A stretch of 64,000 nucleotides of DNA from Bilabrum cf. latius (lineage: Eukaryota): the NCBI GenBank assembly GCA_965178125.1, contig OZ237768.1, positions 124,001-188,000 of the forward strand, given 5' to 3'. How positions within the stretch are numbered: the stretch's first letter is position 1; every line of letters starts with the position of its first letter. The position numbers were made by a program, and so were the translations under genes. Shown here in pieces: positions 2,633-64,000 of the stretch. The notes under the pieces are model-generated. The model saw only the letters and a program-made list of their open reading frames with translations. It ran no database searches and was not told the origin of the DNA.

Positions 2633-4231
2633 ATGGACAGCAGCGCGGCAGATAAGTTCGATTGGCAGCCGCCAAGGTCGCGATTCGAGTGGACGCTTGA
2701 AGAGATCAAGGACGGCTCTGTTGCCAAGAGGTACCCGTTGTCGGGCGCAATGACCACGATTGGAAGGTAGGATGGCGCTGTGGATATTGTTGCTTTGCAT
2801 CCCAGTGTCTCGCGGAAGCACTGTCGAGTAGGATTCGGGCCAAAGGGCTACCTGTATGTCTGCGACGATAACTCAACTCACGGCACCTTTGTAAATAAGA
2901 AATAGCTCCCGCCTGGCAAATCTACTAGAGTGGATGTTGGTAGCACGATCCGGCTTGGCACATCGTCTCGGCTGTATCACATCGACAGGTAGCTGAACGG
3001 CGAAGACCATGCCGAATCGAAAGACGAGGCCTGTGCAGCCAGCGAGGGGGCAGACCAAACATCAGTCTCTTGGGGGTTCAACCGATTTCAGGAGGAAGCC
3101 GAGGGTGAGCAAGCCCCTCCGCAGCCGGGCTTGACCAACAGAGGCCGCCCGATGCTTGGCGCCAGCACCGCCGCGGCGGCAACCACCCATGCCAGCGGCG
3201 GTTCGATGGCCGGTGCAGGTGGCAACGCAGGCACCGACACAGCGGCGCGACAGCACGATGTCGACGCCAGGGACACTCGAGAAGCCCTCCTGCAGGACCA
3301 GCTGGAGTCCGTGAGGAGCGCCGGCGGCATGCTCGACCTCGACAGAGGCGCGGTGGCGGGAGACACCTTGGGCGCTGGTAGTGCGGGGGTCATCGGGGGC
3401 TTGCCGATGGCGGCTTTGGGGCGGCCATCGCAGGCTCATGGGAGGAAGGGTCAGTATTTGCTGGGTGCAGCGCTGCCACGGGGCACGGCTGGCAGGAAGC
3501 GGGGTCCTGAGGGCGGGCCCGTGTGTGAGGAGGGGGCGGGGGGGGGAGGCGCGGCCAAGAGGGCGAGGGTGGAGGCCGGGGGCGATGGATCCAGCGGGGG
3601 GGATGGTGCGGGGATGGGACAGCGAGGCACGGGCAGGTCCAAGCTGAAGTTTGGGTCATTCCGTCGGCTGGCCAAGAAAAAGGCGCCATCAGGTGCCAAG
3701 CAGCAAGGTGCAGATGGAGGCAGTGCGCGAACTGCCACAACCACTGTGCCGCCAGTTGGATCGCAGGGGGAACCAGCTGGTAATAGCACTTCACAAAGCC
3801 GCCCGCAGTCCTAGGCAAAGGCCCGGGTCGGCATGGAAGGCACTGGGACGGCAAAGGCCCGGGTCGGCAGGGTAGGCACCGGGACGGCTGCCTCTGCATC
3901 CGACGAGCCCTAGCCCAGCAAGCCCGTGGCCCTCGGTGAAGCAGCCCTGCGTCGACTGGAGGGCAAGGCACGGGAGCTGGAGAGAGAGGTGTCCGTGCTG
4001 CGTCCACTGGAGCAGCAGCGAGAGAGGGCAGTGGGAAGAGCAGAAGAGCACTTGGGCCGGGTTCTGCAGGCGGATGGAGGCGGGCACGGGTCCATGGCCG
4101 AGTTTGATGCAAGGGCAGCGGTTGATACAGCCAAGACGAGGCTTGAGGAGGTGAGGCGCGACCTGGCCGCCGCCAGAACCAGCCTGGCCGAGGTCGAGGG
4201 CAAGCTGGCTGGCAAGTCGCTCAGCACGTGA
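2633..4231 (+). CDS. FHA-domain protein (kanadaptin/NIPP1-like FHA) with C-terminal coiled coil
   Basis: One frame from ATG 2633 to TGA 4229-4231 with 5 in-frame TAGs (2768, 2903, 2990, 3812, 3911). FHA motifs: TIGR*DGAVDIVALHPSVSRKHC...DDNSTHGTFVNKK*LPPG...IRLGTSSRLY. The ORF track misses the FHA part. Confidence 0.85.
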
Positions 4232-4348
4232 AGTGGATCCGGCGAGGGGGTGGTCACCTGGCTCGGGTACCGCGGATTGCAAGGATCCAGGGACGGTAGA
4301 CGAGAGTTAAAAATAAAAACAGGACATTCATCCTCGAATGGGTCTAAA

Positions 4349-6746
4349 TCATTTCATAGGAACCTGCCCTGACCCGGATTGGCTGCCCTCATTCTGCGCA
4401 TGCCCGCCCCTGCGCAAACAAGCACCCATCGCAGTAGTGCCACCCTCGCCCGCAACGCCAGCGCTACAAGTACTCGGGCTGAGCAGGCCGCTCCGGGGGT
4501 CTGGTGCAGCGGGGGCACCTGACAGGCTGCCGCTTCCCGGCGCCAGCCCGCTCCCGCTCGGGGCCTGCGCCGGGCCCAGCACCGGAGTGTGCTGCATGGA
4601 GCTGCTGCTCCAGCCCACGGAGCCGCTCGAGGCCGCGCTCGCGCTTGCACCCGCATTTGAGCTGGCTGCAGAGGATGCCGGCCTCTCGGCGCTGCAGCCG
4701 AAATCGGACGCGGTGGACACTGTGGCATTCGAGCCGGCTACAGGGGTGCGCAGCGGGCTGCGAGCGCACTCCGGCCCCCTGGCACCGGCACCGGTGGCTG
4801 TATCTGCGGGCGACAGTGCCAGACTGCTGGATTGCATGTTGGGCTGCATGCTGGGCTGCGGCGTGACAGGCGACTTTTGCTGCTGCTAGGGCGGCAGGCC
4901 CATCCCCATTGGATCGAAGGCCCCTATGGGGGCGGACGGCGAGGATGAAGACGAGGAGGAGGAGGAGCGGGGCGCATACCCGACGCTGAACCCTGCCCCC
5001 GCTCCCGCTCCAGTCGCGTGCACCAACCGATCTAGACCTCCCGCCCCCGCGCACCCGTCCCAGCTCATGCCCCTCGTCCGCCCCATGCCTCCGATGCCTC
5101 CCATTGCTCCAGCCCCCGTTGCGTTCCTCCAGGCCAGGTCTGCCCTCCGCTGCTCCTCGGTCCTCACGAACCTTCCCTTAACCCTGACCCTTTTATCCGC
5201 CAACTTCTTCCTGCAGTTGTACCTAACCTTCCGACTCCAGACCCTCCTCTTCCTCTTGTCATGGAACCGCTTCAGCAGCGCCCGCCGCTGGTCCACGTCA
5301 AACACCCCGATGCGCCCGTCCTCGTTGTACCCCAGTGCCAGCTCCGGCTCCAGCACGCCGCAGCACACACGAGCGTACTGCATGCTGGCCAGCGCGGCGG
5401 GCATCGACTCTGACCTTGCGCGCTTGCCGCTGCCCCTCCCGAACAAATTGGCGGCGCTGCCCGCAGCAGCGAGGGCAGCCGCACTGGGAGTCCGCTTGCG
5501 CCTGAGACCGGCCAGCCGACCCGTCCTGGGCCTATCGTCCCTCGAGCTGGTGATGGACCCGCTGCGGCCCAGCCAGTAGGCGGCCGCGTCGCTGGCTCTT
5601 CCCCTGGTGCGTGTGCCCGCTTGTCTCGGCGTGCCCGACGATGATGACGATGAGGAGGTGCTGGAGGAGGTGGAGCTGGATGGACCCAAAGGGCTGGCCT
5701 TGGCTTTGCCTCGAGCCTTGCCCGGCTTGGCACCGGATGGGCCGACCGCTCCTTGCAGCCCCCGGCCCGACGCAGAGGAGGGCATGCCTGCGAAGGACTG
5801 CGCCCTGCCGCGGCGCCGCGCATGGTTCCGCCCTGCGGGGGTGCCCCCCATGGCTTCGTGGTACCTGCTGGCTGCTTCCTCTAGCAAACTGGTCGCAACC
5901 ACCGGGCCGGGTCCGGAGCCGGGGCTGACAGTGCCCGGCAGTGCCGACGAAGAGGAAGAGGAGGTCCCGGCTGGCTCGGCCCCCTGGGGTTCACCCCCGC
6001 CCACCGCGCTGATACCGACGCTCATGCTGCTGCCAGTTCGACTGCCCGAAGTCGCGACTGTGAGCGCTGCGTCGGTAGTGGGCGGGCTGCCCGCGCCTTG
6101 AATCGACCTCGCAGGGCAGGGCCGGCCCTAGCTCTGGCCCTGGACCTGGTTATCGGAGCGGTTCGGTTGGTGCAGGCTGCCTGCTGCAATCGAATACAGA
6201 ACGTCTGCGGCTCGAGTAGCATGAAAGAAACGGTACGTCCTGATGAAAATCAGTAGACACATCTAAAACGATCCAAATCCAGCGGTGCGACCAGCCTGCA
6301 ACAACCGACCCGGCGGCGGATGACCGTGTGCTAGAGCCAGCACGCACACGAGAAACCGAATTGCGGAATCCGGGCCGAGCTGCCGTTTCAGAATAAGTCA
6401 TCTCACCGATAGAACCCGACCGTGCGCGGCCGCTTTGGCCGCTCTGCTAGGACGCTCGCTCGGCGATCCACTGCTAGCTGAAGTCATTGCGACCAGCTGC
6501 ATCGCTGCAAGCAGATGCCGACTAGGCAAATGAGAGCAGATCATGTGCAGTAGCTCGAGTTGGGCTTGGTAGCGGCTGCGAGACCACAGACTCCGACTGC
6601 GTCTCGGTGGGCAACCGAGACCCAGATTTTGCGCCCGACGCCCCGGATTGGTCCAAACGGGACGCAGGCGCCGGCTCACTGGAATCAGAGCTAGTTTCTT
6701 TTACTGTAGAAAGCTGGACCAACTCTGCTCCGTCTGGTGGGGCCAT
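4349..6746 (-). CDS. CCT-domain protein, probably 2 exons
   Basis: CCT motif RRALLKRFHDKRKRRVWSRKVRYNCRKKLADKRVRVKGRFVR. ORFs 4886..6025 and 4349..4849 are joined by TAG and end at TGA 4349-4351. Probable first exon from ATG 6746 to a GTGAG donor at 6406; acceptor near 6170-6190 not resolved. Confidence 0.8.
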
Positions 6747-7241: not shown

Positions 7242-10200
7242 ATGGACCACATACTATCAAACACTCGGTTGAAGAGGGGTAGCCATGAAAAGGGGAGGAA
7301 TCAAACAGCAACCTAGCACCCTCGCATCGGAGCATCAGCTGTGTCCGAGTCTGAGGGTGTAGCAAGCTCGTGCGTCTCCTCGCTCGCTTCTACAATGCGA
7401 GCATCCACTGGAACGCGTGGTTCGGAGCCAGTTCAAGGATCCCACGCCTCGATGGCAGTCTCGTACGCCTCGGTGCACATGAGCGAGAGAAAGCGAGCCT
7501 CCACGTCCCAGTCGGCTGTGCGATACGGTCTCAGCGAGCAGGCCAGGTCCGGCATGCAGGCTGCGGCAAAATCGAGTAAAGACGATAGTTTTTCGGGGTT
7601 GTCGGCCATAAAGCCACGGCCAACACCTGGGGTTGGCCGGCTTGCTCGCTCACGTAGCGAGGGGAGACGCTCGGGAGCAGACTTGCTCGCGCCGTCGCGT
7701 CAGCTCTTCCCGGGCCCATCCGCCCCTATGGATGAAACGAATCCTTCTCAATTTTCATCTCCAGAGCATTGCTCTGCTCCTGGCACCCGCACGACACACC
7801 GTGACAGCCCCGGCCGAGCGGGAGCAGACGGAGGCTGGCCCGGCGCTGCGGCGCATCATCTCGAGGGCGCCTCGGAGGGGCCCGGCCTCTTTGGCTCCCC
7901 GGATGTAACTCGCGCGCGATTGTCGCATGACTAGAGCCAGCACGCTGACGACCTGGAGACCGGTGCCGGCCTGCGACTGGAGGATATGGACATGCGTGCC
8001 AGCGGGGAGGAGGAGAACCATCGGTATGGGGAAGAGGAGGAGGAGGAGGAGGAGAGCGATATGACTGACAGAGCCAGAGCAGGTCGATGGGGCAGCAGCA
8101 CCCCTCGAGCCACGCTGTTCGGGTCATCTGGCAGCGGAAGCAGCAGCTGTGCTGATGGGCCGAGTGCCAGTGGAGCAGAGGCTGCGGCAGCAGCAGCGGA
8201 CGGTGGAGAGGAGGGTGACGACGACGACGAAGATGAAGATTGGAGAGAAGGGGCTGGGGGCAGGCACCAGAGCAGGTCCCAGTCCAGGACTCATCAGCGG
8301 GGCATGCGCGGGGGGGGCATCCCCCTCCCCAGCATGGCACTCTCAGACGACGAGGATGAGGACGAGGGGGAGGAGGAGATGCCGGGAATGAGGGGGGTGG
8401 GGCGCCCCTCCGCCTCCGCCTCCTCCTCCACTGGCCCGCTGTCCAGCGACAGGTCCGAGGGGAGGCACAGCCGCGACTCGTTCAGGCCTGTCCCGGACCA
8501 GAGCGCCTTCGAGGCCAACGAGACCACCGAGTTCCACGCCATCGGGTCTCCGGGGGCGCAGGGGAGCGTCGCCCAGCTGAGGGCCCCTCCAACTCCAGTG
8601 GCCAAGCGGGTCAGTCGGTCGCATGACCGTGACCCGAATGGGCTCCGGCGAGTGCCCTCGGTGGAAGAGACGCAGCTGCTGGTCGTGCTAGAGACGGTGA
8701 GGCTGGATGTACGCTCGCGCTGGGATGCACTGCACTGCACTGCATTGCCATCTTCCCGTGCCACACTACTACCTTTTGCATGCCCCCTAATTACCCCTGG
8801 CCCGGCATTCCTACTTCTCTTTCTTGCCCCCTTCCCTTCTCTTGTCTTCTCCTCCACCGCAGGGGCACCCAGAGGACTACTCCCTCTTCAGGGCCATGGG
8901 AGTGGACTTCCACGCCCTCAAGGAACACGAGGTAGCGGCGGTGGGCCCGAGGCAGGGGGAGGCGGGGAGCGCAGGAGTGATCCGGTCCGGCTGGTCACGG
9001 AGCTCGCAAGGGGCCAGCAGCGGCAGCCATCTCCAATCCGCCCGCCTGCCCGTCCCCAGCCCCTCTGGCTCCATGGGGGCCCGCACCGATGCCACTGCTG
9101 TGGAGAGGAGGTCTGCCGCATCGCCGCTGGCATCTGGGGGCCACAGGCTCGCGCTGCGTGCAGCTGCAGGCGGTGCTCTGGCCCTCCCCGCCGGCATTCG
9201 GAGGGCGGACTCGTTCTGCTCCTAGAAATCGGGCCACAGCGGGATCAGCGCCGTGGTGCGGCCGGCGCTGATGGACTCCATGGCGCCCTCTGCCCGCGCG
9301 AGCGACGTGACGGTGCATCCGATGCCCCAGTCCGCCGGCGGGTTCAGCTTCAACGAGTGCTTCGAGCAGCTTGGGGTGTTGGGCGAGGGCGCATTTTCCG
9401 TGGTGTATGCTGCCCGAGCCAAGGCCAACGGGGTGGTGTACGCCGTGAAGCGCAGCAGAGACCGCATGTCCTCCGCCGCGGAAAGGAAGAGGAACATGCG
9501 AGAGTTCTTCGCTGCGCAGCGCGCCGGGCCCCACCCGCGGCTGACTCGGTACATTGCTGCGTGGCAGGAGCAGGGGCACTTGTTCTACTGCGAGGAGATG
9601 TGTCCGAAGGGGAGCCTCAAGGATGTCGAGGCGCTGGTGGCCAAAGGAGACATGAGGGGGGCGGTGCCTGAGGAGGAGAACCCACGGGCGCCTGCTGGGG
9701 CCTAGTCCTCGTCCTAGTCGTCGTCCTCGTCATCTGCCCCGCTGCACGAATCGCACGGCGCTGCCCGCATCAAGGCGTCCAGGGTGCTGCCCGAGTCGGC
9801 CGTGTGGCTCGTGCTCGCGGATGTGGCGGGTGCTCTGGCCCACCTCCACGGCCGCGGGATGCTGCACATGGACGTGAAGCCTGACAACGTGTTCGTGGGT
9901 GATGACGGCCGCCTGAGACTAGGCGACCTCGGGATGGCCGTAAGGACCAAGAGAGCGGGGAGGAGGGGTAGCAACAGAGGCAGAGGGAGGGGCAGGGGGT
10001 GGGGGCCGAAGCGGGGCAAGGGGCGCGAGTCGTAGAGGTATCATTAGAGCCAGGATGATGCCAATGCAGTGGACTGTGCATCGGGGCGAGCCACCGAGGG
10101 ATGCGCGGGGAAATCTCGCCGAGCCTCCCTCGCCGCCACCGCAGCTGCAGCAGCAGGCAAGCTGGACCTGCCGTCCGGGCAGTCTCAGGTAGCGATGGGA

Positions 10201-13200
10201 GACGAGGATGATGACGATGAGTATGATGCAGGGCCGTGCAGCAGGGTGCACAGCGGGAGGGGGAGTCCCGTGGGTGATGAGGCTGCTGCTAGGCACGGCA
10301 TTGCAAAAGCTCACCTGGGCGAGAACAAAGGCTAGGACGTGGAATAGGAGGGGTGGGGCGAGATGCCCACCGCTGGGCGCGCAGGACGACCTGACCGACC
10401 GTCTGCAGCCCCCGGCACTGCCGTCAAGAGCAGGAACAGGAACAGGAACAGTCGGACAGACGGACCCAGGATCCTGTCGTTTGCCAGCGGGCCTCACACG
10501 CAGCCTCGGCCTCGGCCTGTCCCTGTCCCTGGTCCTGGTCCTGCGATTGGGTCCTCGCCCATTGGCCGCCGGGCCTTGTCTGGCTCGATGGGTCCACTGG
10601 GGGGAGGGAGGGGTGCCGCCAGGACCCTGCAGCTCGGCGGCCTGCCAGTGACTAGCAGCAGCGAGAGAGGGGGAGAAGAGCGGGCGGCGGTGAGTAGGTC
10701 CATTCGGCGCATTGACACGGCCGCGTTGGAGCTGGAGGCCGAGGCTGCCCTGGGACTGCGGGGCGTCGGCAGGGGCAGAGGCAGAGGCAGGGGCAGGAAT
10801 GGCAACAGAGAGGCGCATGCACATGCCCAGGTTGGAATGGACGATTCGGCTCAGTTCGTGGACAGCGATGAAGCAGGAACTGACTCTGATTCCGAGTCGG
10901 ACAGCGGCACGGAGGGCGGGCCAGAGCAGGAGCAGGATCAGGACAGCGGTAATGACCCCGGGGTGCTGCACGTGCGACGAACGGCCTCGGCTTTGAACTG
11001 GAGCGACAGCAGCGACAGCGATGAGTCCTCGGGTGACGACCGGGAGGAGGAGGAGGACAGGGACAGGGACAGCAATGACAGCCCGATGAGCGCCGAGAAC
11101 GCCTCCGAGGGCGACGCTCTGTACATGGCCCCCGAGCTGCTCGCGGCGGGCAACGCCTCCCCCAAGGCCGATGTGTTCTCCCTGGGCGTGCTTGCCTTCG
11201 AGCTCGCGTGGGGGCTGAGGGCGCCCGCCGCGGGGGATGCGTGGCACGCCATCAGGGAACACAGGCTCCCGCCCATCCCCCCCGTGCTGCACCGGTGCAG
11301 GACGCGGGTCCTCGCCAATGCGGTGCGCGCCATGCTGCACCCGGACCCGTCCAAGCGGCCCACCGCCAGGCAGATCTAGCAGCACCCCCGCGTGAAACAC
11401 GCTGCCGCCTCGTGCTGCGCGCGGCCAAAGCACGCTTCTGGTCCAGGGCCCGGAGGCAGCGGCGGGTTCACGCCTGCCCAGAGCTAGGGCCAGGGCCAGA
11501 AGCAGGCTGCTTCCGGCAGCGGCGGCCAGGACCCCTCGGGGTACTTCAGGCTTGCCCCCGACAGGGACCTCGCGGTGCAGGACCGGCAAGGCCAGGACTC
11601 CCTGCATGCGCGGGGGGCGCAGCTGGGCAGATCTGCTTCGTGCGGCGCTGATGCGCTCGAGGGTCCCTTGGCGGCTCTCCAGCAGCAGCAGCAGCAGCAG
11701 CAGCTCCAGATTGACGTCAAAGGTGCCAACCAGGCCGCTGCCGTCGCAGGGGGCGCTTGGCACCAGAGGGCAGGGTCTGGCGCGGCCAGCCAGGGGCATG
11801 CGATGCTGTCCCCCACGGATCTGGTCACTCCGGTGGGGCAGCACGAGGGCAGCGGGGCGGCGAGGGTCCCTTGGCTCGGCGCGCTTCCGGCTGCCATCCT
11901 GGAGGCTGCACCCGCTGATGGTGGTCGTGGCAACCAGAAAAATCAGAAAAATTAGAAGGCTGCTACATGCAATGGTGATGACGTGACCATGGCGAGGGGT
12001 GGCGGGACCTGGGCGAGATCGGAGGAGGGGGAGGAAGCCGGCAGTTGGGGCGAGCTGGCGCAGCGATAGTAGCAGAAGCAGCCCTCGATCGAGTTGCCAC
12101 CAGCTGGCGACAACCCGTGGTCGCAAGCAGGCGCAAGCACGGACGGGGGCAAAGGCTCTGCATGGTCACCCCTCCCGAAACACCCCCGCAAGCGCAGGCA
12201 GATGAGCGGGGGCCGGTACGAGGCGTCCTGCAGCCCCGCCGCCAAGGCCCAGGGCAGGCGCGCAAGGAATCGCCGGGGGTCTGTGGCGATGGAGGCAGCA
12301 GAGGACGGGGAGAGTGAGAGTGACGAGTGGGGATCCGGCGTCAACGAGGAGGATCGCGAGGCTCCCCGTGCGCAGAGGCATGGAGGCGACCCCGAGCAGC
12401 AGCGGATGCGCGACCCTAGGGCGAGCCTGTGGCCAGCAGCCGTCCCACCCACCGCCCGCAAGCCCCAAGGGACTGGAAGAATGCGACTGAGGCCGCAGAC
12501 GGGGACGCCGATCGGCATGCCACAGCCCCGAGGCGCAGCACCTGCTGGCCCGCTGGCACACGCGATCGACTTTGGGGACGGTGACAGGGTGCATCGCACT
12601 GCAGCTCCGTCCAGGTCCGCTAGGACGCCAGCCATCATTGGGGCCGGCCGCAGTCCTGCTCCTGCTCTAGCGCCCTCATCCTCCTCCTCGTGCTCCTCCA
12701 GGTCCTCCCAAGCCTAGTCTTTCCCATCGTCCTCCGCGTCCTTCACCCCCCGGCATGGGGGCAGCGGCGCGCGCAGTGACAGCGGCCGGGGCCAGGGCCA
12801 GGAGGCCCCTCCCACCACTGCCGTGAAGAGAGCCAGGCCGCTGGAGGAGCAGGGCAGGGTGCTGGGGCCCAGGTCACCTCAGGCTGCTGCCAACAGGCCC
12901 GCGCCCCTGACCGATGGAAAAGCGAGCGATGGTGGTCGGGGCATGGGCATGGGAGGGAGGGCACCCCGGAGACTCGACTTCAACTAGAGGATGGGCACGG
13001 CCAGATCAGGCGTGATACGGATGGAGGAGGATGAGGACGATGATCAGGTCGCGGGCCAGAGCGCGGGAGAGGGAGAGGGAGGGTCTTCGCTCGGGTCTAG
13101 CTGGACGGAAAGCAGGGGGCTGAGGGGCGGCAGTGGGGATGGGAATGGTAGCAGTTGGGATGCGGAATCGTGTGGGGTTGGGTCCTTTGCTCGCCGCGGG

Positions 13201-13269
13201 GAGTCAACAGGGAGGGAAGCTGTTCGTGCGGCTCGGGAGCAGCTCAGGAGGAGCAGGGGTGGAATTTGA
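7242..13269 (+). CDS. Wee1/Myt1-like protein kinase with long low-complexity extensions
   Basis: Motifs LGEGAFSVVY, AVK, HMDVKPDNVF, GDLG, EGDALYMAPE (the EGD motif is typical of Wee1/Myt1), ADVFSLG and RPTA. Intron 8697..8862 (GTGAG...CCGCAG). About 15 in-frame TAGs; ends at TGA 13267-13269. Start ATG 7242 is inferred. Confidence 0.8.
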
Positions 13270-13940: not shown

Positions 13941-14181
13941 TTTGAATAGGGAAGTCCTAGGTGACGAATAATGTCAATTTCAAATCAATTGACTTGTCGT
14001 AGCAGGAATCCACAAAGTACCACGCAACACCGTGACCTAATCGAAGGGGCGAAACCCGTCAACCATTCCACACGCTACCGCCGGCGCCACCGGTCGACAA
14101 GCCGCCATGCTAATCAAACTGAGCCACAAGGAGTTGATTCGGCAGCCATCTAGAAAACTTCTAACTGGCTGCATCCATCGC

Positions 14182-16578: not shown

Positions 16579-16622
16579 GCTGAAAATATATCTCGGAAGA
16601 ATTCAGGCAACAGCTTGTCAAG

Positions 16623-51611: not shown

Positions 51612-51652
<41 letters not shown>

Positions 51653-52900: not shown

Positions 52901-53028
52901 TTTGATGTATGTGCCGGGAACCCTTTTTTCGGCAGATTGCACGTTCGGAGCGAACCCGAGCGAACCGGCATTCTTTCAAGTGCAACAGCGTCCAACAAAT
53001 ATCAGTGTTCGTGTACAAGAAATCCAGA

Positions 53029-54315: not shown

Positions 54316-55931
54316 TCAGTAGGACCTGCCCTCCGCCGCTCTCTCGTGGATCCGCGCCGAGATTCTTCTGAGCGCCACGGCCGCCTACTTGAGCGCGTCA
54401 AAGGTCCCGCTCTCCTGCGCGCTCTTGGCGCTCAGATGCAGCACTCCATGGGTCTAGTCGATGTGGCCAACGAGGCGGCCGTCCAGGATCAGCTGCGCCA
54501 CGAGCTGCTCCGCCTCGGTGCCCTCCACGTCTAGTTCCTTGGCAAGGAACTCAAGCCTGACCACCTTGTACGGCCGCACGATCTGCAGCACCACCTGTCC
54601 CCTGAAGTTCCTCATGAGGGGGGCGAGGTACTCCAGCATGAAGGGATCATCCTGGATGTGCGCCTTGGGGTCTGCAAGCACGCGCTGGAAGCCGTTGATG
54701 TCGTTCTTGTCGAATGCTCGCCGAAGCTGCACCATGGCTGTGATCTGGGGGTCATTCTCGTACGCCTTTGCCTCCTGGGAATCGAAGGGGTTCACCTCGA
54801 TGCCGGCGATCATGTTGGCCAGCAGAACGCACTTGAGGCACCGCACGGCCCTCGTGTTACCCGCCGCCTGGTAGTTCTTGAAGGACTCGAAGAACTCGTC
54901 AAAGGCCTGCTTCCAGTTCTTCTAGGTCATGTGCATCTCACCGAACGTCTCCCTGATCGTGCCCATCACCCTCGGGTCCGCAATGGCCACTTTCTGAAGC
55001 TTGTTGACAGCGTCGTAGTACTTCCGGATCGCGTCGAATTTCTTGGTGATTCCGCAAAGCTGGATTCTGAGCGCGTACACGTCCATAAGGTACGTGGCCT
55101 TGGCCTTGTCGTCCTCTCCCGCGGGGGTGCGGCAGCTGTCGTGCAGTGCGTCCACGGCTTCCTGCAGCTTGGTGGCGTCCCTGTGCGCCACGTGGGAGCG
55201 AGCCAGCTTGAGCTACGTGGAAAACCACAGCCTCTCGTTGGTTGCTTTCAAGTGGACGAGCGCCTTTTCGTACATGGCGCTCTGCAGGTCGACATCATCC
55301 GCCGTGGATACCTCGTCCAGGATGCGATCCATCGCGCTCGTGCCATCGTTACTCGTCACCAGCGGGAGCAAACTCATGAGCTACGTGAATGATTCAGAGG
55401 CCAACTCTTTTCGATTCAATTTCACGGCAAGTACCACGATCTCCTTGAGGGCCTGGAATCGGCTGCGAGCACATGGTCAGTCGGTACACACACACATCCA
55501 GGCGAATTCGGAGGGGCAACGGCAATTGCTCAGGCACTCCCGCCCGCATGCGAAATATCTTACTATTTGTTGCTATCTGGACTCAATTTGGACTCCTCTT
55601 CGACCACGCTTTGGAACAGGGTGATGGCTTTGTCGGCGTCGCCTCGTCTCAGCACGTCCTCGCCTTCGTAGTAGTTATTTTCGATCTAAATGCTGGGGTC
55701 ATCCTCCTCTCTGCGAAAACAAAAGAAATGACACACGGAATACGCCGAGCTTATGTGCAAAAAAAATACGCTGTCGTTGCAAACGCAAGATGGGCTCGAT
55801 CCGAGAACGTATTGGGTATCGATGCCTCACGCTGCACCACCGTCCCCTTCCCCCCCATCATCGTCACTAGGGTACTCGATCTCTGAATCTCCATCATCAC
55901 CGTACTCGTACTCTTCTTCATAGTCAGACAT
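54316..55931 (-). CDS. CSN2: COP9 signalosome subunit 2 (PCI domain), 3 exons
   Basis: MSDYEEEYEY...IENNYY, FQALKEIV, NERLWFST*LKL, VYALRIQ, PRVMGTIRE, FFESFKNY, INPFDSQEAK-like EVNPFDSQEAKAY, IVRPY, LILDGRLVGHID*. Introns 55830..55711 and about 55563..55463. Six in-frame TAGs; ends in TGA. Confidence 0.92.
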
Positions 55932-56088
55932 AGTTGCTATTTTTGCCTGGAGGTCTTTCGCCTCAATGCGCTGCTCTTTTTATATCTTCATCAATTCGTA
56001 TTTTGACGCGAAAACTTTCAGCAACCCAGCGTAGCTCTCAGAGAGTATTTAGGAGCTGGTCTTTGTGCTTATATTGAGTATCTGAAGA

Positions 56089-59000
56089 ATGGCATCCGCC
56101 TCTGGCGGGCCCACTGGCGGGAAAGCTCCAGCCTCTGGTGCTGGTGGGTAGGACTCTTCGCTGCGCGGACTGGCCTCGTCCTTTCTGTCTCGTTTTTCTG
56201 GAAAGGGAGAGGACGGCAAATCCCCAGGAAAGAAAGGCAAAACAAAGCCAAAGGTGGATCCTATGGCTGGACTAACCCCCGAAGAAAAGGCGGAAAGTGA
56301 GACCAACCGCACCCAATCGTTGAGTTGCTATGCGCTCGTTTTTACTAGTTCTACCTTGAATCATATTGGTGGCAAGCGAGACTGAGTATGTGCATGCTCC
56401 TTTGTATTACCTCGCGCAGGGCGGAAGGCTCTAGCAAAGCGAGAAGAGAGGCTCATCAAGCTGTTTGCAAACTTCGAGCTGCATGGCGGGCCGTACTAGA
56501 CGGATGTCGTGCTTGCCAAGAGCGAAGGCCGGCTCATCGGCGGGCTGGCAGACGACGAACTTCTTAAAATGCAGTGGTATCGCGCGGGTACAGGAAGCGA
56601 TGGGGGTTTCACGGAGATCAAGGGCGTGCACGGCGGCTTCTACCAGCCGTCTGCCGAGGACGTCAGCTGCCGCCTGCTGTGCCGCGCCACCAATACGGAA
56701 AACGAGGGCTAGTCAGGATTCGGAGAGTGGGGTCCCCTGGTCCTCGACCCCGATATCCGTGCCCGGGCCCTGGAGGTGGCAGCCCGCCGGCGCGTGGTCT
56801 TCGAGGTCGAGAGGAGCAAGGAGCACGACCAGAAGAGGCGCCTGTCCATCGAGCCCGACGGGGCCATGGTGCTAACGGGCCCGGGGTACTCCGAGATCGG
56901 CTCTCTCAAGTCCAAGGCCTCCCGTGGGGTGCACTTGGAGCTGGACCCTGTCAGTGTCACGGAGCTCCTTCTGACGGTCCCTCGCACGGGTGTGGAGTAC
57001 GTCCCCGAGCTGGAGAAAATGAAGGTGGTGCCAACCAAGGCGCTCAACAAGAAGAAGTTCTTCAGGGTTAGGCTGCGGGCCCAATCCAACGAGGAGAGAG
57101 ACGTGCTGGCGCTGGTGCTGTGGAAGAAGTGCGGCCTGGACAGGGGTCGCTTGCTGGACGATGAGGACGAGGACGACGAGGACGACGACAGGGAGCTGGA
57201 GTAGGAGGTGCATGGTGTGGCCAGTAGTGCTGATGCTGATGCTGATGATGATGATGGGGAGGCAGGGGCGGCGGCGGGGGGTGCCTCTGGCGAGGGGGAC
57301 GATGGCGAAGACGCAGGGCGAGCAGGCGATGGTATGAAGGCCGAGGACGAGAAGGGTGCTGGTGCTGGTGATGGAGATGGAGATGGCACAGCTGGTGATG
57401 GAAGCATAGAGGCCGACGTGTCTGAGAGTGGTGGCGGCGGTGGTGACGATGTGGATGCATAGGAGGACAGCCCAGGCAAAGACAGCAAGTCTGGGGATGG
57501 TGGGGAAGACAGCCCAGGCAAGGAAGATGCTGGCGGCAGCAATAGCGACAGCGACAGCGACAGCGACGATGACGTGGAGCTGACGGCGGATGGACCTGCC
57601 GCAGGAGAGGCTGGACTGGTGGGCCTGGAAGACAAGGAGGAGGATGACAAGGAGTAGGACAAGATAGCGAATGAGGGATAGGACAAGATAGCGAAAGAGG
57701 GATAGGATAGAGGTGGCTCGGAAGAAGCAGGCGCAGGTGACGCAGCTGGGGATGTGGCAGGGGTTGCCTCTGGCGGAGACGACGGTGGGGGCGCTGAATC
57801 CAGCGGAGGCACTGCAAGTGGCAGCGCTATCGTCGGGGAGGATGGCCATGGGGATGCTAGCGAAGAAGGCGATGACTCTTCGCCTCATGCGAAAATAGGC
57901 AAGCCAGATAAGCCAGACGGAGACAGCTAGCAAGCCGACTCGGGCGCTGGCTCCGGGTCAGGCCCCGAACCGGCCTCGACGGAAGCAAGCAGTCCGCAGC
58001 AGGGGCAAAGTGGCTCGGCAGCCCATCCGCCAGCCGCTGCCACGGCCTCCCAGCAGGCCTCCAAAGAGGGCGAGCCCGCCTTAGTGGCCGAGGTCTCTCG
58101 GCTCCGCTCCCAGGTCCGAACCCTCCGTCAGCAGCTGCAGGATCAGTCCAAGCAGCAGGTCACCGAGCTGCGGGCCGCGCGAGACGGTCAAGACAGAGCC
58201 AAGCGGGCGCTGCGGCAGACCCAAGACAAGCTGGAGAAGGTGCAGGCGGAGGCGTCCAGCGGCAAGCGGGCCGTGGAAGAGTGCAAGCGGCTCAGGAGAG
58301 ACATCGAGAGGGCCAAATCGAGCCAGGCCGCGGGCCGAGAGGACCAGGACAGGGTCAGGAAAGAGGCCGCCAGCGCCAGGAAAGAGGCGCGGGCCATCCA
58401 GCAGACGCTCACCCAGGCACAGCGCAATCTGGCAGACACGAGGCGGCAGCTGGAATCGGCCCGAGGCCAGCTCGTGGCTGTGGAGGAGCGCGCGGAGCGG
58501 CTGCAGGGCGACCTCGAGCAGGCGCGCGAGGCCAGCGACTCCAAGTCCACGCAGATCAGCACCCTGAGGCAGGACCTGGATGCGGCGCGGGAGGCCGCCG
58601 AGGACTGCAGGGAGCAGCTCGCTCGCGCAAAGGATGACGCGGAGAGGGCGAGGGAGGAGGGGGAGGCGGACAGGAGGCGACTGAGGGCCAGTGAGCAGAG
58701 GGAAGCGGATGCCAACGACAGGGCGGCAGAGATGGAGGCACAGAGTGCCGCGAGGAAGGCGCAGGTGGACTCTCTTCAGAAGGACCTGGCAGCCGCCACT
58801 GGCAGGGTGCGGGAGGTGGAGAAGAGGTGCGACGTGCTGCAGGAAGAGAGGGATGCCATGCGAAGAGAGGCGGACACGCATGCCAGGAGCGCGGAAGAGG
58901 CCAGGAAACGAGCGGCAGAGGCAGACAAGGAGGCGGCAGCTGCGCTCGAGCAGGTGAGGGCGGCGCAGTCAGCCCAGGCGGGTGCCCTTGGCCAGGTCGA

Positions 59001-59814
59001 GGAGGCGGGGCAGGAGCTGGAAGGTGCGAGAAGGGAGGTGGAGCGGTGGAAGGCCAAGGCAGAGGAGGCTGGCAGGGCGGGAGAGCTGCTAGAGGAGGCC
59101 AGGAGGGAGAAGGAGGAGCAATCGGGGGAGCTGGACAGGCTGCAGGCGGAGCGGAATGCCCTGAGGAGGGCGAACCAGAGCCTGCGGCGTGACGTGGCGA
59201 GGATGATTGCGGGCGGGTCCGGGTCCGGGAGTGGGGGAGGGGGTGCAGGGGGTGGTGATGCGCACGGGGGTTCTGGTGGCAGGGAGCTGGAGCAGGCTCG
59301 GAGCAGGGCGCAGACTCTCGAGTCGGACCTCGCTGCGGTGCGCGGCCAGCTGGAGGACGCGAGGGCGGAGCTGAGGAGGATGAAGCGAGCCGGGACCGGG
59401 GCCGGGGCCGGGGCCAGTAGCGGTGGCAGGCGAACGGGAGGCGGCGGTGGTGCAGCTGCCCCCTTGCGGCATGGGAAGGGCGACTCTGTCGGTTCTGGTG
59501 GGGTCGGAGCTGGGGCTGGATCGGCCCCGATGGACTTCTCCGGCGGGCTGGCGAGCCTGCTGGCTCCACCCGAAGTGGGCGGGGGCGGCAGCACAGGGGC
59601 GCAGTCTGGGCTCGCGGCAGGCGGGTCCCAGGCCGGTTCGGCAGGGCCCGCGGGTACGGGTAGTGTTGTGCTGGACCTGCAGCGGCTAGTGGGCAGCCTG
59701 ACCGAGGCGCTCGATGACAAGGAGACGGCGCTCAAGCAGCAACGGAGGACCAAGGAGATGCTAGCGCAGAGAATAGGGGAGTTGGAGGAGGAGCTCCGGA
59801 AAGCCAAAGCGTGA
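56089..59814 (+). CDS. Protein with an Ig-like (AIR9/SCAB-type) domain, acidic linker and long coiled coil, 2 exons
   Basis: MQWYR...EIKGVHGGFYQPSAEDVSCRLLC resembles the A9/SCAB Ig repeat. Intron 56297..56419. About 10 in-frame TAGs. ORF 58084..59814 is a heptad-rich coiled coil ending in TGA. Confidence 0.7.
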
Positions 59815-59943
59815 CTTACTGCACGCCAGTTTTACGCAACTGCTGATCATGTAAATCTCAGAGGCTCTATATGCGGGCCGCCGATGTGATTTGCGGAACC
59901 TCTTCGTTGCCGTGCTCGGTGCAGACTCGCGCAACGCTACGAA

Positions 59944-62900
59944 ATGCGCGCCTCCGATTTGTTAAAAGGCAGGCGTCGAGTTTTATTGCTAGCGAAGGCT
60001 AACCCAGAAGACAGCTTGCAGGCACTTGTTGCAAGCGAGCGTCTTGTAGCACACCAATCTGAGTGCTGCCTTGTCGCTGCGTACCGAGTATCGCGAACCC
60101 CAAGCAGCCTCCGGTGCGCCAGCGCTTTTGTAGTTGAAAGCCAAGCACTGTCTAATCTGCTTGATTCCATCAGCGTGGTTCTCAATACAGTCAGTGGCAG
60201 AGCGACTAGCCTGAATTGGTGCGGCGAGCATGGAGCTGCCGTTGCGGCATCCCACAGGCTTCTTGCCATCATCGCAGAGCATTCAACGAAATCGCTCCTT
60301 CTGGTCTCTCTTGCATGGCGCGCTGCATCTGAGCAATGGTAGGAGGACCGCCCGCGCACGGCATGGTTCGGCAAGATCAGCACCAGTTGCCACTCGCTTC
60401 AATCCTCCATGCTCCGTGCATTGATGGTGTTTCTTCGCCAAGGCACAACAATTCGAGCAGCACGGCTAGTGAGTGGCCGCGCAACCTCGCAAGACGCGGC
60501 AGCGGTCCTGAGCATGGCCGCCGGCTGCGTTGCTCCGCGGGAGGAGTCCATGGAGCCTCTGGACGACGATGAAGCCATGGTTCTGGCGTCATCTTCGCCA
60601 AGCCGAGACGCCCGGCAGACCGCTGATCAAGGAAACTCTCTGCGGATTAGGGTGCTGCGGGCCGGGCAAGAAGGAGCTGACGCCGACAAGGCCAACCTTC
60701 AAGTCGGGCTGCGCACGGTCCCTTCCTTCTCGCCGGGGTAGTCACCCCTGTCTATCCCTCCCACTGGGAGCCGGCTCGCGAGCGACCCTGGGAGTCCGTC
60801 GCTGCTCGCACTCGCTCCTGCATGGACCAGAAGAAGTAGCGTTGCATCGGTTGGCGCTGTCGGTGCCAGTCGGACTGCTCGCTTCCTGCCTGACCTCGGA
60901 GCAGTTGCCAGGGCAAGAGACGCGATCGTGGCCCATTCTGGTCTCGCGGCCCTCGCGCGCATGTGGGCTGCAGCAGCGGCGGCGGGTGCTCTCTCTACGG
61001 ACGACATTGTCCGACAGGCGCGCCAGTTCCAGATCTAGGGACAAAGAAGGCTAGGAAGCGGAAGCATGAGCACGAGCACGCGGGGGCAACAAGGGCGCGG
61101 AATCGCCCCACTGGGCGCGGCGCAGTCTGCCATGCCAGCTGCCGGTGGAGGCTACAGGCCAGGGGTATCTGCAGGCGGCGATAGCGCCTCAGACTGGTCT
61201 GATCTCGTCCGACAGGCCACACATACAGCATCCGCAACATCATCCGCAACAGCAAGCCTGGCAGCAAGCAACGAACACGATCGAGCACCGAGTCTCGCGG
61301 GGGCGTGGATGAGCGCGCCGTGTGGCGATGGAGGCCAGGAAGATATTACGGGCACGGCTGGTTCGGCTGAATCTGGCTTCTGCGAAGAAAGCGGTCATGA
61401 TGATGATAGTGATGATGACCTTGGGTTTGCGGGGCTCAGCTTGGAGCAGCTGGCTATAAGATGCTAGCGCGGACTGGCTCGCCTGGCTCAGGCACTGCTA
61501 CCACTCGCAGGGGAGGACGAGGAGCAGGAGGAGCCGTAGGAAGATGGAGAAGGCAGTGAAGATGGCACTGGTGACGTGGATGGTGATGGATAGACAGGCC
61601 ACGACGGGGCGCGGGCAGCCGATCCGGACAGTCGAGCTGCATCGGATGCGACGGCTTCCATGGGAGTGCAGCGGGCGTGGCAGCGCGTGGTGGAGGCAGA
61701 GGTTCAGCGCGGTGAGGTCGTTCCAGCGATCGAGTGCGCGTCCTGCGGCGAGCCAGTAGTAAGACAAGCATGCCTTGCCACAGTGCTGACCGCTGGTGCT
61801 TCGGCAAGCTGGTGCCTCGTGGCTGCCCGGGTGTCAGCTGCTTTGAGCCAGGCTGGAATGGACCGAGGGACACATAGGGCAGATGCAGCAGCAACTGCAT
61901 CAAAGTATAGGTCCAGAGCTGGGTAGGCGTCGCCCAGCGGCAGCTTTGAGGGGGACGACCCGGTTCCTGGTCATCTCGAGCGGACAGACAGCAGGGGTCC
62001 CGCATTGCGCGCCTCTGTGTTCCAGGGCGGGTCAGTTGGCGGTGGTGGTCTTGGACCACCGATGGGGAGAGAGGGTTCCATGCCGCTGCAGCTGTCTGGT
62101 TCGAGGCAGTCGTCAGCCAGGGACGTGCTGGCCTCCCAGTCTATGGCGGGCACGTCAGGAAGCAGAGGGGTGGCTAGTGCAGATAGGTAGGACGTAGTGG
62201 CAGTCGCAGCTTGCGTGAATGCATCCGTGAGTCGCCTTCTAGGGGGAGAAACGGGCTGGAGGGAGCTGGGTGGCAGCCCAGAGGAAGCAGCCGTGGGAGG
62301 ATACGCGCGGCATGCCGCACTCGCACATGCGGTGTCTTTCGTTGCGAGCGTGGCTGCCAGCAAGTCTGTGACCGCTGATCGTGCGGCAAGAGCTGCCGCG
62401 GTGGACGTGTGTGAGCATGCGGTGACTGTTTTGCTGGAGTCTCTCGGCAACGAGAAAGGCAAATCGAGCAGCGGAATGCAGCATGCAGCGCTTGGGGATC
62501 AAGGCAGTGGCACGGCTCGACTCATGTTCCTGCTGATTGCTGCGGCTAGGCTGCCCGTGGATGTGGCGGCCTTGCATGGGCCTGTTGGAGGGGCCCGATG
62601 CTACCTGGACAGGCAAGGCCGGTTGCCGGCGTGGGTGTTTGCAGCTCAGGATCGTTGCTTGGAGCGGGTTCTCGGGTACATGTCTCCCACCGGGCAACAG
62701 GAGCTGCTGCATATGGCGGGGCCAGCGGGAGCTCGGCTACTCGCCACCACGCCGGGGATCGGGCCTGGCACCAAGCCCTCCATGCCGTCTCGCCTTGGGC
62801 CAAGGTCGGTCAGTAGCGGCAGCGGCGGCATCAGCGGGTCTTAGGGGAACCTCAGCAAAGGTTCCTGGAGGCCATGTGGCGCTGCTGGCGCTGGTGGCCC

Positions 62901-64000
62901 GGCTCGCTCTATGCTGCAAGAGCTGGTGGCGATGCTGGTGCAAGGCGAGGGAAGGTAGGCGCAGCTAGAGGCAGGCAGGCTCGACCCCATGGCAGATGAT
63001 GCTGCCGGCCTAAGCAATCAAAGTGGGATGCGCCTGCCCTGGGCGAGGCATAGGCTTGCTTCTCAGCACGCAGGCACCGGGAGTGCTCTATAGCCATAGC
63101 CTGGTGAGGCATCGCCGACCACTCGCTGGTCCACATCGCGCGCAGGAGGCGCCGTGGAGCAGGCCATGGTACAGCTGCGGGCGCTGGCGGCCCGGCACGA
63201 AGACCCCGACCGGTCTGAAGGTGGGAGTTCTCGCTCCGGGTCCTCACGTTCCCTGCTCCGTCGGCTTTTTGGAAGACATAGCACGCGGCAGGTCGGCGAG
63301 GACGAGCAGAAGAGGGCAGCTGGCACCGGTGGCGGCGTGGCTTCCCCCGTACAAGGACAGCGACCCCCTCGCGCTGCGGTTGGCGCGTCTGCGCGGGGCC
63401 ATGGCGCGCAGCTTCGTGCCCTGCAGCAGGCAGCTGTCATGCACGTGGTGGCAGTGGCACAGTGCGCTTGCGGTGTACTGCAGCTGGCATCCCGCCCTGA
63501 GTGCCCAAGAGACACCGCGCATTCCACCTGCATGCAGCTGCTGTCGGTGCTTGGCTCCGACCTGGCGGCATGGCCGGAGGTGCGCAGGGCGAGGGAACAA
63601 GCCAGGGCGTCTGCGCGGAGGGAGGGAGCGGTGCGTCCGCCCGAGAGCACGCGGATGTAGCGGCGGCATGCAGAGCTCCGCGCCGCATCCCATCTCGCCG
63701 TCATGGGCCACATGATGCGGGCAGCTTGTTCCCTGGCTGGCCGGTCCAGCCGGTCCACGATGGCGGTGAATCGTCTGCTGGAGTCAATGTACGTGTCTCC
63801 ACAAGAGGAGGCCAGGGACAGAGGCAGCCTTGGATCGGTGGGTCGGATGGATGGACCCGCGCCGATGGTACCCCGTGCGATCGGAGAACTGGCACAGGCC
63901 GTGGTGGCATCTGGGGAGCAGTCGAGGCACAGGCGCCTCGTTCTCCTCTAGACCCTGCTGGAGCGGACATGCGAGCTGACCACTCGGTTCGCAGGGGATG
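59944..64000 (+). CDS. Large Ala/Leu-rich hypothetical protein, runs off the window end
   Basis: Eight track ORFs (59944, 60409, 61066, 61660, 62005, 62197, 63154, 63703) lie in one frame separated by TAG. Confidence 0.6.

What the first reader, a model, noticed from the sequence alone, without database searches (positions are those of the whole stretch)
2633..64000. Non-standard nuclear genetic code: UAG reassigned from stop to glutamine
Seen: almost all genes on both strands carry in-frame TAGs (about 100 by hand count) with no frameshifts. The fragments rejoin in one frame and end at TGA. Affected genes include essential ones (TOP2, TAF7, CSN2). Established: at the informative sites the family consensus residue is Gln. 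Inference: this eukaryote decodes UAG as Gln, which needs a tRNA-Gln(CUA) and an eRF1 that does not terminate at UAG; neither is in this window. Reassigning UAG without UAA is rare in nuclear genomes, where the two usually change together. The lineage could be a new, independent origin.
Basis: partly seen in the sequence, partly recalled or inferred. Interest (0 to 1): 0.97.

Follow-up and report, generated by a model that had tools for sequence, protein, structure and literature searches.

The report
Nuclear UAG read as glutamine
This GC-rich, intron-poor protist genome uses the stop codon UAG as an ordinary glutamine codon while UGA ends its genes, a rare kind of genetic-code change that here sits in a lineage near the stramenopiles where it has not been described.

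Summary
Fifteen long reading frames on both strands (16,023 codons; 10 with a Pfam family) carry 106 in-frame TAG and no frameshift. All 14 complete ones end at TGA. Five more TAGs lie in spliced exons of TOP2, CSN2 and an ElbB-like gene.

TAG is best read as Gln. Over 8 alignment columns Gln is the only residue with positive summed log-odds (+10.1; Glu -2.3). Close relatives have Gln at 12 of 17 compared sites, including CAG/TAG swaps in the TOP2 core. Spliced contigs from three runs carry the CSN2 TAGs unchanged, which argues against editing and introns.

TAA is not a sense codon: 0 in frame against about 25 expected if it were coupled to TAG. It probably ends one gene. The code therefore matches the UAG-only type (NCBI table 15 pattern).

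TOP2 and CSN2 trees place the organism with unnamed environmental sequences, beside the named stramenopiles and with Cafeteria. Seven literature searches found no report for such a lineage.

No tRNA-Gln(CUA) or eRF1 could be examined, because no genome is held.

The parts
2633..4231 (+). FHA-domain (kanadaptin-like) gene; 5 in-frame TAG; ends TGA
   Evidence: Pfam FHA 8e-15; PDB kanadaptin 7e-13; TAG at codons 48, 93, 122, 396, 429 of frame 2627-4231
4349..6397 (-). CCT-motif gene; 3 in-frame TAG; ends TGA
   Evidence: Pfam CCT 6e-15
8791..13269 (+). Wee1-like protein kinase frame; 14 in-frame TAG; ends TGA. An upstream exon probably lies in frame 6996-8790.
   Evidence: Pfam Pkinase 2e-35; PDB Wee1 1e-8
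14041..15630 (+). GH5 cellulase-family gene; 1 TAG; ends TGA
   Evidence: Pfam Cellulase 6e-27
17358..19481 (-). GT61 glycosyltransferase-family gene; 5 TAG; ends TGA
   Evidence: Pfam Glyco_transf_61 5e-10
19912..26343 (-). 2143-aa frame with IQ motifs; 9 TAG; ends TGA
   Evidence: Pfam IQ 7e-12
28557..35393 (+). 2278-aa frame with no family; 15 TAG. The last TAG (35388-35390) lies directly before the TGA (35391-35393).
37189..39558 (-). TAF7 (TAFII55) gene; 3 TAG; ends TGA
   Evidence: Pfam TAFII55_N 8e-13; orthologue in L001
39856..45814 (+). DNA topoisomerase II. Exons ..40207, 40351-40566 and 40716-45814, with GT..AG introns. TAG at 40150-40152, 40159-40161 and 45356-45358; ends TGA. The start codon is uncertain.
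   Evidence: Pfam and PDB; exon 1 by tblastn; sequence; gene model; 72 homologs
46031..47515 (-). 494-aa frame with no family; 8 TAG. Several lie in a perfect 18-nt coding tandem repeat (46453-46515), one TAG per unit.
47676..51080 (+). 1134-aa frame with no family; 9 TAG; ends TGA
   Evidence: contigs of run X5 cover 47682-48665 and 49279-51055 without differences
51227..52975 (-). CID-domain gene; 6 TAG; ends TGA
   Evidence: Pfam CID 5e-9
53107..54150 (+). ES1/ElbB-like (DJ-1/PfpI superfamily) gene. Exons ..53249, 53344-53567 and 53741-54150. TAG at 53236-53238 and 53923-53925. The only gene model here that ends at TAA (54148-54150).
   Evidence: Exon 1 matches PDB ElbB at 4e-5 and exon 2 at 4e-6, colinear. 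Contig ends at 53249 and 53741; splice signals and frame. The last exon gave no family match of its own.
54316..55933 (-). COP9 signalosome subunit 2. Exons 55831-55933, 55564-55710 and 54316-55462; 464 codons. Six TAG with first bases 55688, 55383, 55215, 54924, 54456 and 54387; ends TGA.
   Evidence: PDB CSN2 1e-78; spliced contigs in runs X5, X7 and X8 with 0 other letters; gene model
56386..59814 (+). Coiled-coil gene with CC149-like C-terminus; 8 TAG; ends TGA
   Evidence: Pfam CC149 5e-8
59890..63999 (+). 1370-aa frame with no family, open at the window end; 14 TAG. It has the lowest coding score of the 15 frames (0.043).

Best explanation
This is nuclear DNA of a GC-rich, intron-poor eukaryote in which UAG is a standard sense codon for glutamine. 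About 13% of the Gln codons in the 15 frames are TAG: 106 TAG against 582 CAG and 136 CAA. UGA is the main terminator. UAA is not used as a sense codon and probably still terminates.

Shown here:
- TAG lies in frame in essential genes.
- The frame is kept across every TAG.
- Spliced transcript contigs retain the TAGs.
- Gln is the best-fitting residue.
- TAG and CAG swap between close relatives.
- In-frame TAA is absent.

Inferred from established knowledge of other stop-to-Gln codes, not tested here: decoding by a tRNA-Gln with anticodon CUA (one base away from the CUG isoacceptor), and an eRF1 that no longer recognises UAG but still recognises UGA and UAA.

A plausible route is codon capture. 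In a genome where UGA ends nearly all genes, UAG stops could become rare enough to be taken over.
For: 1. Frames. There are 106 in-frame TAG in 15 frames of 16,023 codons, and 14 of 14 complete frames end at TGA. Ten of the 15 have Pfam families.

2. Embedded-stop test. Stop triplets embedded in coding-like sequence on both sides: 37 TAG, 0 TAA, 2 TGA; both TGA cases are artefacts.

3. Residue.
- TOP2 exon 1 reads TIE-TAG-IY-TAG-KKTQLEHILLRPDTY. In 72 homologs with the motif, the two columns are Q 43 / E 23 and Q 60 / T 12.
- The CSN2 'HID-TAG' column is Q in 105 of 113 homologs.
- Summed log-odds over 8 window columns: Q +10.1, E -2.3, N -5.5, all other residues lower. With two columns from a relative added: Q +13.0.
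- Calibration in CSN2. The mean share of homologs with Q is 0.243 at the 6 TAG columns and 0.220 at the 18 CAG/CAA columns. It is 0.008-0.085 at columns holding the other residues tabulated.

4. Close relatives.
- CSN2: P0001 (86% identical) has Q at 4 of 4 TAG sites, P0002 at 2 of 3 and P0003 at 4 of 5.
- TOP2: relative L001 (718 of 806 aligned residues identical; L038 shows the same two sites) has two TAG in the catalytic core. The window has CAG there, and the standard-code relatives L002 and L049 have Q.

5. Transcripts. One contig in each of runs X5, X7 and X8 (two studies) joins 55462/55564 and 55710/55831, with GT..AG ends on the minus strand. Each has 0 other letters over the CSN2 exons it covers. 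Two of the three cover all five TAGs of the last exon and one covers four; all three cover the exon-2 TAG. Run X6 holds the unspliced form.

6. TAA. None lies in frame, against 106 x 136/582 = 25 expected if it were coupled to TAG. Reading TAA as sense extends the long frames by only 15-30 codons. The ElbB-like gene model ends at TAA.
Against: - At weakly conserved sites TAG does not align to Q. The three alignable TAGs of L001 in TAF7 face T, R and G in the window.
- Window TAGs face L/N/E and R/R/P in three FHA structures and V in human Wee1.
- Five of 8 window columns have D, E, N, E or K as the majority residue.
- No tRNA was found in the window and no genome is held, so the decoding machinery is unseen.
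- The run kinds are guesses; X5 is marked 'probably DNA'. Calling these contigs RNA rests on the canonical splice joints.
- Contigs drop rare variants, so a minor edited fraction cannot be excluded.
- All 14 TGA ends would arise by chance with probability about 0.17, given the out-of-frame TAA:TGA ratio of 62:459. That count says nothing about UAA.
- UAA as a terminator rests on one gene model whose last exon has no family match of its own.
- One frame ends TAG-TGA (35388-35393), so a residual stop role of UAG there is not excluded.
Confidence: 0.9

Rival explanations
1. Both UAA and UAG are reassigned to Gln (the common UAR=Gln code, NCBI table 6). UAA is just too rare to be seen in a GC-rich genome.
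For: All 14 complete frames end at TGA and none at TAA. This is the commonest nuclear variant (passages of PMC5304391 and PMC11687900).
Against: A-ending codons are not that rare: CAA/CAG is 136/582, GAA/GAG 165/842 and AAA/AAG 96/454. About 25 in-frame TAA would therefore be expected, and 0 are seen. None of 316 TAA triplets is embedded in coding-like sequence. Reading TAA as sense barely lengthens any frame. The ElbB-like gene model ends at TAA.
Confidence: 0.04
2. UAG is ambiguous: mostly Gln, but still a terminator in some contexts such as the very 3' end of a coding region, as in codes with context-dependent stops. This overlaps with the best explanation.
For: The 2278-aa frame ends TAG-TGA (35388-35393). 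Three more frames have their last TAG only 14, 23 and 54 codons before the TGA.
Against: After the last TAG of CSN2, the 22 remaining residues are conserved in relative P0001, so translation goes on. No frame needs a TAG end. No transcript 3' ends could be measured, because contigs cannot show ends.
Confidence: 0.08
3. UAG is a sense codon for another amino acid: Glu, Leu, Ser, Lys or Tyr, as in other UAG reassignments.
For: Glu is the majority residue in two CSN2 columns and the second residue in one TOP2 column.
Against: Summed log-odds are Q +10.1 against E -2.3, N -5.5 and all others below -10. The 'YQKK' column holds no E, L, S, K or Y in 72 homologs. Relatives show TAG/CAG swaps.
Confidence: 0.02
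4. UAG is not decoded at all. The TAGs would be assembly errors, pseudogene lesions, intron sequence, or sites edited to CAG in the mRNA.
For: None found.
Against: The same letters stand in runs of several studies. Spliced contigs run across the TAGs unchanged. Fifteen of 15 long frames are affected without a single frameshift. A relative in metagenomes has its own in-frame TAGs at other sites.
Confidence: 0.01

Closest known systems
UAG-only reassignment to Gln in Iotanema spirale (fornicate), Protocruzia tuzeti and two phyllopharyngean ciliate lineages (NCBI table 15 pattern)
   Same: UAG is read as Gln while UAA is not reassigned. These cases are listed in the discussion passages of PMC11687900 and in the abstract and passages of PMC5304391.
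   Different: The organism is of another kind. It is 62% GC and intron-poor, and it falls beside stramenopiles in the TOP2 and CSN2 trees. It is neither a ciliate nor a metamonad. UGA dominates as terminator. The tRNA and eRF1 were not seen here.
UAR=Gln codes (ciliates, Hexamita, Streblomastix, ulvophycean green algae, aphelid Amoeboaphelidium protococcarum)
   Same: A stop codon is reassigned to Gln and UGA is the terminator (passages of PMC5304391 and PMC11687900).
   Different: UAA is not a sense codon here: 0 seen against about 25 expected. The aphelid was considered as the source and rejected. Its genome is 40.5% GC (Table 1 of PMC10608142) against 62% here, and the nearest named CSN2 is Cafeteria, not a fungus.
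Other UAG-only nuclear reassignments: rhizarian exLh (Leu), Scotinosphaera (Ser)
   Same: UAG is uncoupled from UAA (passages of PMC11687900).
   Different: The amino acid differs. Leu and Ser score far below Gln here.
Code 15 in crAss-like and other phages
   Same: TAG is read as Gln (abstract of PMC9523058 in the listings).
   Different: Those are phage genomes in bacteria. This is nuclear DNA with spliceosomal introns and eukaryotic genes.

Membership tests
UAG=Gln, UAA/UGA=stop nuclear code (NCBI table 15 pattern) | In-frame UAG in bona fide genes, present in the mature mRNA | tested here: met
   106 TAG in 15 frames, plus 5 in spliced exons. Spliced CSN2 contigs in 3 runs have 0 other letters. 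That these contigs are RNA is inferred from the GT..AG joints.
UAG=Gln, UAA/UGA=stop nuclear code (NCBI table 15 pattern) | UAG aligns with Gln in homologs | tested here: met
   Log-odds Q +10.1 against E -2.3 over 8 columns. Q at 12 of 17 close-relative comparisons. Calibration against CAG/CAA columns.
UAG=Gln, UAA/UGA=stop nuclear code (NCBI table 15 pattern) | UAA is not a sense codon | tested here: met
   0 in-frame TAA against about 25 expected. 0 of 316 TAA embedded in coding-like sequence.
UAG=Gln, UAA/UGA=stop nuclear code (NCBI table 15 pattern) | UAA still terminates | tested here: inconclusive
   One gene model (ElbB-like, 53107-54150) ends at TAA. Its last exon has no family match of its own. 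A genome-wide count is needed.
UAG=Gln, UAA/UGA=stop nuclear code (NCBI table 15 pattern) | UGA terminates | tested here: met
   14 of 14 complete long frames end at TGA. The CSN2 and TOP2 ends agree with the homologs' ends.
UAG=Gln, UAA/UGA=stop nuclear code (NCBI table 15 pattern) | A tRNA-Gln with anticodon CUA | not testable with these tools
   No tRNA in the window and no genome held.
UAG=Gln, UAA/UGA=stop nuclear code (NCBI table 15 pattern) | eRF1 altered in its stop-codon recognition motifs | not testable with these tools
   eRF1 is not in the window and no genome is held.
UAR=Gln nuclear code (NCBI table 6) | In-frame UAA as well as UAG at Gln positions | tested here: not met
   No in-frame TAA.

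The most novel reading that the evidence does not exclude
This would be an independent, recent origin of the UAG-to-Gln code, with UAA kept out of the change, in a non-ciliate and non-metamonad lineage: a GC-rich heterotroph-like clade near the base of the stramenopiles, close to Cafeteria in CSN2.

The change appears confined to a shallow clade. The window organism and relatives at 86-91% protein identity have in-frame TAGs. Relatives at about 65% TOP2 identity have a TOP2 without TAG, and one neighbouring gene there seems to end at TAG.

If so, the clade offers a young, datable case for testing codon capture under a strong UGA-stop preference. Sister lineages with the standard code are available for comparison.
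Probability: 0.5. Interest if true: 0.82.

Novelty: new member of a known kind. Interest (0 to 1): 0.72.

Why it matters
Nuclear code changes are few, and UAG and UAA nearly always change together. According to the papers read here, only a handful of lineages split them. A further case in a very different genome (62% GC, UGA-dominated stops, near the stramenopiles) would add an independent data point on how a stop codon is captured. It would also show how eRF1 can lose UAG yet keep UAA.

The relatives help. Some have the same code and others, at greater distance, have the standard code. The change may therefore be young enough to trace its steps: the tRNA anticodon mutation, the eRF1 substitutions, and the loss of UAG stops.

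There is a practical point too. Any annotation of this genome, or of its transcripts in other organisms' data sets, under the standard code will truncate nearly every protein.

Tried and rejected
No genome-wide count, tRNA search or eRF1 search was therefore possible.
- The look-up of sequencing runs: no RNA holder listed. The RNA reading of X5, X7 and X8 rests on splice joints only.
- Homolog search with a 411-aa piece of the GT61 gene (4 TAG) gave no hit at E<=0.001, so it added no comparisons.
- PDB search of the CID region gave no hit.
- FHA and Wee1 structure alignments put TAG opposite variable positions (L/N/E, R/R/P, V). They are uninformative.
- The last exon of the ElbB-like gene had no Pfam or PDB family match.
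- Six-frame Pfam scan of 35400-37188 found nothing.
- The listing of cluster members gave no organism names for the nearest proteins.
- Aphelid source (Amoeboaphelidium protococcarum) was rejected on GC content and on the nearest hits.
- Frame lengthening alone was rejected as proof, because reading TGA as sense also lengthens frames.
- Searches (wrong frame; window row out of frame) were my errors. They were redone. One search was a script error, redone.
- Literature searches for this code in stramenopiles, thraustochytrids or bicosoecids, or as 'code 15' in eukaryotes, found no such report. The library lacks most subscription journals. Supplements were not consulted.

Full report
**What the window is**

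The 64-kb window is 57-70% GC in 4-kb bins. It has no tRNA gene. It is densely packed with eukaryotic genes on both strands.

Pfam and PDB searches identify the following:
- an FHA (kanadaptin-like) gene and a CCT-motif gene;
- a Wee1-like kinase;
- a GH5 glycosidase and a GT61 glycosyltransferase;
- an IQ-motif protein;
- TAF7 and DNA topoisomerase II;
- a CID-domain protein;
- an ES1/ElbB-like protein;
- COP9 signalosome subunit 2;
- a coiled-coil protein.

Introns are few and short, with GT..AG ends.

**Checking the observation**

Under the standard code the longest frames are 1595, 748 and 723 aa. With TAG read through they are 2278, 2143, 1747, 1492 and 1370 aa. Reading TAA through changes almost nothing. 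Reading TGA through also lengthens frames, because TGA is the commonest stop triplet in GC-rich DNA, so frame length alone is not proof.

Fifteen long frames (16,023 codons) carry 106 in-frame TAG, and every one of the 15 has at least one. All 14 complete frames end at TGA. Ten of the 15 have a Pfam family.

I also ran a test that does not depend on how the frames were drawn. It asked for a stop triplet flanked on both sides by 60 coding-like codons free of TGA and TAA. It found 37 of 836 TAG, 0 of 316 TAA and 2 of 1402 TGA. The two TGA cases are out-of-frame readings of an acidic repeat.

Five more TAGs lie in spliced exons. Two are in TOP2 exon 1, one in CSN2 exon 2 and two in the ElbB-like gene.

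**Are the TAGs in the mRNA?**

Public runs hold the stretch under several coded organism labels. When these were laid on 40001-60000, one contig in each of X5, X7 and X8 (two studies) joined 55462 to 55564 and 55710 to 55831. The skipped 101 and 120 bases begin GT and end AG on the minus strand.

Joining the exons this way gives a complete 464-codon CSN2 with a homologous N-terminus. These contigs have 0 other letters over the exons they cover. Two of the three cover all five TAGs of the last exon and one covers four. All three cover the exon-2 TAG.

Run X6 holds the unspliced form, as DNA would. I read the spliced contigs as transcripts. The run kinds are only guessed by the tool, and contigs cannot exclude a minor edited fraction.

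Taken together, this argues against the TAGs lying in introns, being assembly errors, or being edited to CAG in bulk.

**Which amino acid?**

All searches used X at the TAGs, so that Gln could not bias the alignments.

TOP2 exon 1 reads TIE-TAG-IY-TAG-KKTQLEHILLRPDTY. Among the 120 TOP2 homologs fetched, 72 have this motif. In those, the two columns are Q 43 / E 23 and Q 60 / T 12.

In CSN2 (118 homologs, the two closest kept apart) the six TAG columns have these majority residues:

| Column | Majority residue | Q count |
|---|---|---|
| 1 | D | 7 |
| 2 | E 41 | 36 |
| 3 | N | 5 |
| 4 | E | 4 |
| 5 | Q | 105 of 113 |
| 6 | K | 8 |

Summed log-odds over the 8 window columns are +10.1 for Q, -2.3 for E and -5.5 for N, with all other residues lower.

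As a calibration, I compared the share of homologs with Q at different kinds of CSN2 column. It is 0.243 at the 6 TAG columns and 0.220 at the window's 18 ordinary CAG/CAA columns. It is 0.008-0.085 at columns holding the other residues tabulated. TAG columns therefore look like Gln columns.

**Close relatives**

Three unnamed CSN2 proteins were compared at the TAG sites they cover:
- P0001 (86% identical) has Q at 4 of 4 sites.
- P0002 (83%) has Q at 2 of 3 sites.
- P0003 (52%) has Q at 4 of 5 sites.

Metagenome locus L001 has 718 of 806 aligned TOP2 residues identical to the window. It carries two in-frame TAGs in the TOP2 catalytic core, and L038 shows the same two sites. The window has CAG at both, and the more distant L002 and L049 have Q.

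Against this, the three alignable TAGs of L001 in the less conserved TAF7 N-terminus face ACG (T), CGC (R) and GGC (G) in the window. Overall Q stands at 12 of 17 close comparisons, where about one would be expected from the Gln content.

Distant structure alignments (FHA, Wee1) put TAG opposite variable positions and say nothing either way.

**UAA and termination**

No TAA lies in any of the 15 frames. A-ending codons make up about a fifth of each two-codon pair here (CAA/CAG 136/582). If UAA were coupled to UAG, about 25 in-frame TAA would be expected.

All 14 complete frames end at TGA. That count is uninformative about UAA, because the out-of-frame TAA:TGA ratio is 62:459 and chance alone would give this result with probability about 0.17.

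One gene model does end at TAA, the ES1/ElbB-like gene:
- Its exons 1 and 2 match ElbB colinearly (4e-5 and 4e-6).
- Contig ends and GT/AG signals fix the outer splice sites at 53249 and 53741.
- The only frame left open through the last exon stops at TAA 54148-54150.
- The last exon gave no family match of its own.

I therefore call UAA 'not sense, probably still stop'.

One frame ends TAG-TGA (35388-35393). A residual stop role of UAG at that site cannot be excluded.

**Who is it?**

The aphelid Amoeboaphelidium protococcarum was a lead, because it is a known UAR=Gln organism (passages of PMC5304391). Its genome is 40.5% GC (Table 1 of PMC10608142), so I reject it as the source.

- TOP2 tree (29 rows, quick search, SH-aLRT support). 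The window and L001 are sisters (100). They sit inside a clade of 10 unnamed environmental sequences (99). That clade is sister to the named oomycetes plus ochrophytes (100 for the union). Green plants and opisthokonts lie outside.
- CSN2 tree (27 rows). The window, P0001 and P0002 form a clade (100). It lies inside a 7-row clade (100) with the bicosoecid Cafeteria.

Both trees have few named taxa, and no alveolates, rhizarians or haptophytes. 'A stramenopile outside the oomycete-ochrophyte group' is therefore a lead, not a placement. A cluster look-up gave no organism names.

The sister subclades (L002, L049) have a TOP2 without TAG. The gene next to TOP2 in L002 appears to end at TAG, with only 15 further codons before a TGA. 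This suggests, on thin data, that the change is confined to a shallow clade.

**Comparison with what is known**

Two papers were read as passages (PMC5304391; PMC11687900). According to them:
- UAG and UAA nearly always change together.
- UAG-only changes are known for Gln in Iotanema spirale, Protocruzia tuzeti and two phyllopharyngean ciliate lineages.
- UAG-only changes are also known for Leu in a rhizarian and for Ser in Scotinosphaera.

The pattern here (UAG=Gln, UAA not sense) is therefore a known kind of code. The lineage and genome type are different.

Seven full-text searches found no report of it in stramenopiles or any similar GC-rich protist. The library lacks most subscription journals. 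The runs that hold the sequence date from 2025, so a description may exist that I could not see.

**Mechanism**

Shown here: UAG is in mature messages of essential genes, the frame is kept, and Gln fits.

Inferred from established knowledge of stop-to-Gln codes: a tRNA-Gln(CUA), derived by one anticodon change from the CUG isoacceptor, and an eRF1 that has lost UAG recognition. Neither could be looked for.

TOP2 has the strongest codon bias of the 15 frames (GC3 0.85). It has only 3 TAG against 57 CAG, whereas the other frames average about one TAG per 140 codons. This fits TAG being a minor Gln codon.

**Verdict**

This is a new member of a known kind of code variant. Its interest depends on whether the lineage is indeed undescribed.

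Noticed in passing
window 53107-54150 (+): A three-exon ES1/ElbB-like (DJ-1/PfpI superfamily) gene lies between the CID gene and CSN2. It is the only gene model in the window that ends at TAA, and it has two in-frame TAGs (53236 and 53923).
   Followed up: partly
window 35388-35393: The 2278-aa frame ends with TAG directly followed by TGA. This is either a C-terminal Gln or a trace of a former TAG stop backed up by TGA.
   Followed up: no
window 46453-46515 (-): A perfect 18-nt tandem repeat (3.5 copies) inside a coding frame. Each unit encodes G-A-M-H-TAG-Q, so the TAG codon has been multiplied along with the repeat.
   Followed up: partly
window 35912-37111: An intergenic direct repeat: 300 nt at 36085 and 36812 (96% identical), and 82 nt at 35912 and 36617 (85%), about 705-727 nt apart. 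A six-frame scan found no Pfam family.
   Followed up: partly
window 51000-60000; runs X1-X8: The same sequence, with 0 other letters in the listed contigs, is held by runs filed under four different coded organism labels (A, B, C, D) from four studies. Small shares also occur in an 'algae metagenome' and a 'protist metagenome'. The organism may be a co-cultured or contaminating protist in other organisms' data sets.
   Followed up: no
L002 2-1702 and L049: Relatives at about 65% TOP2 identity have a TOP2 without TAG. In L002 the neighbouring frame reaches a TAG and then runs only 15 codons further to a TGA, as expected if TAG is a stop there.
   Followed up: partly
P0001 and P0002 (CSN2 relatives): The called protein P0001 begins at the first Met after the window's first TAG site. 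P0002 ends just before a position where the window has Gln. This is as expected if the gene callers were cut short by in-frame TAGs in those relatives too. Their DNA could not be fetched.
   Followed up: no
window 28557-35393 and other frames: Very long homopolymeric runs occur inside frames: about 60 Ser in the 2278-aa frame, plus Gly-Ala, Ser and Asp/Glu runs elsewhere. They are typical of this genome's low-complexity coding sequence.
   Followed up: no
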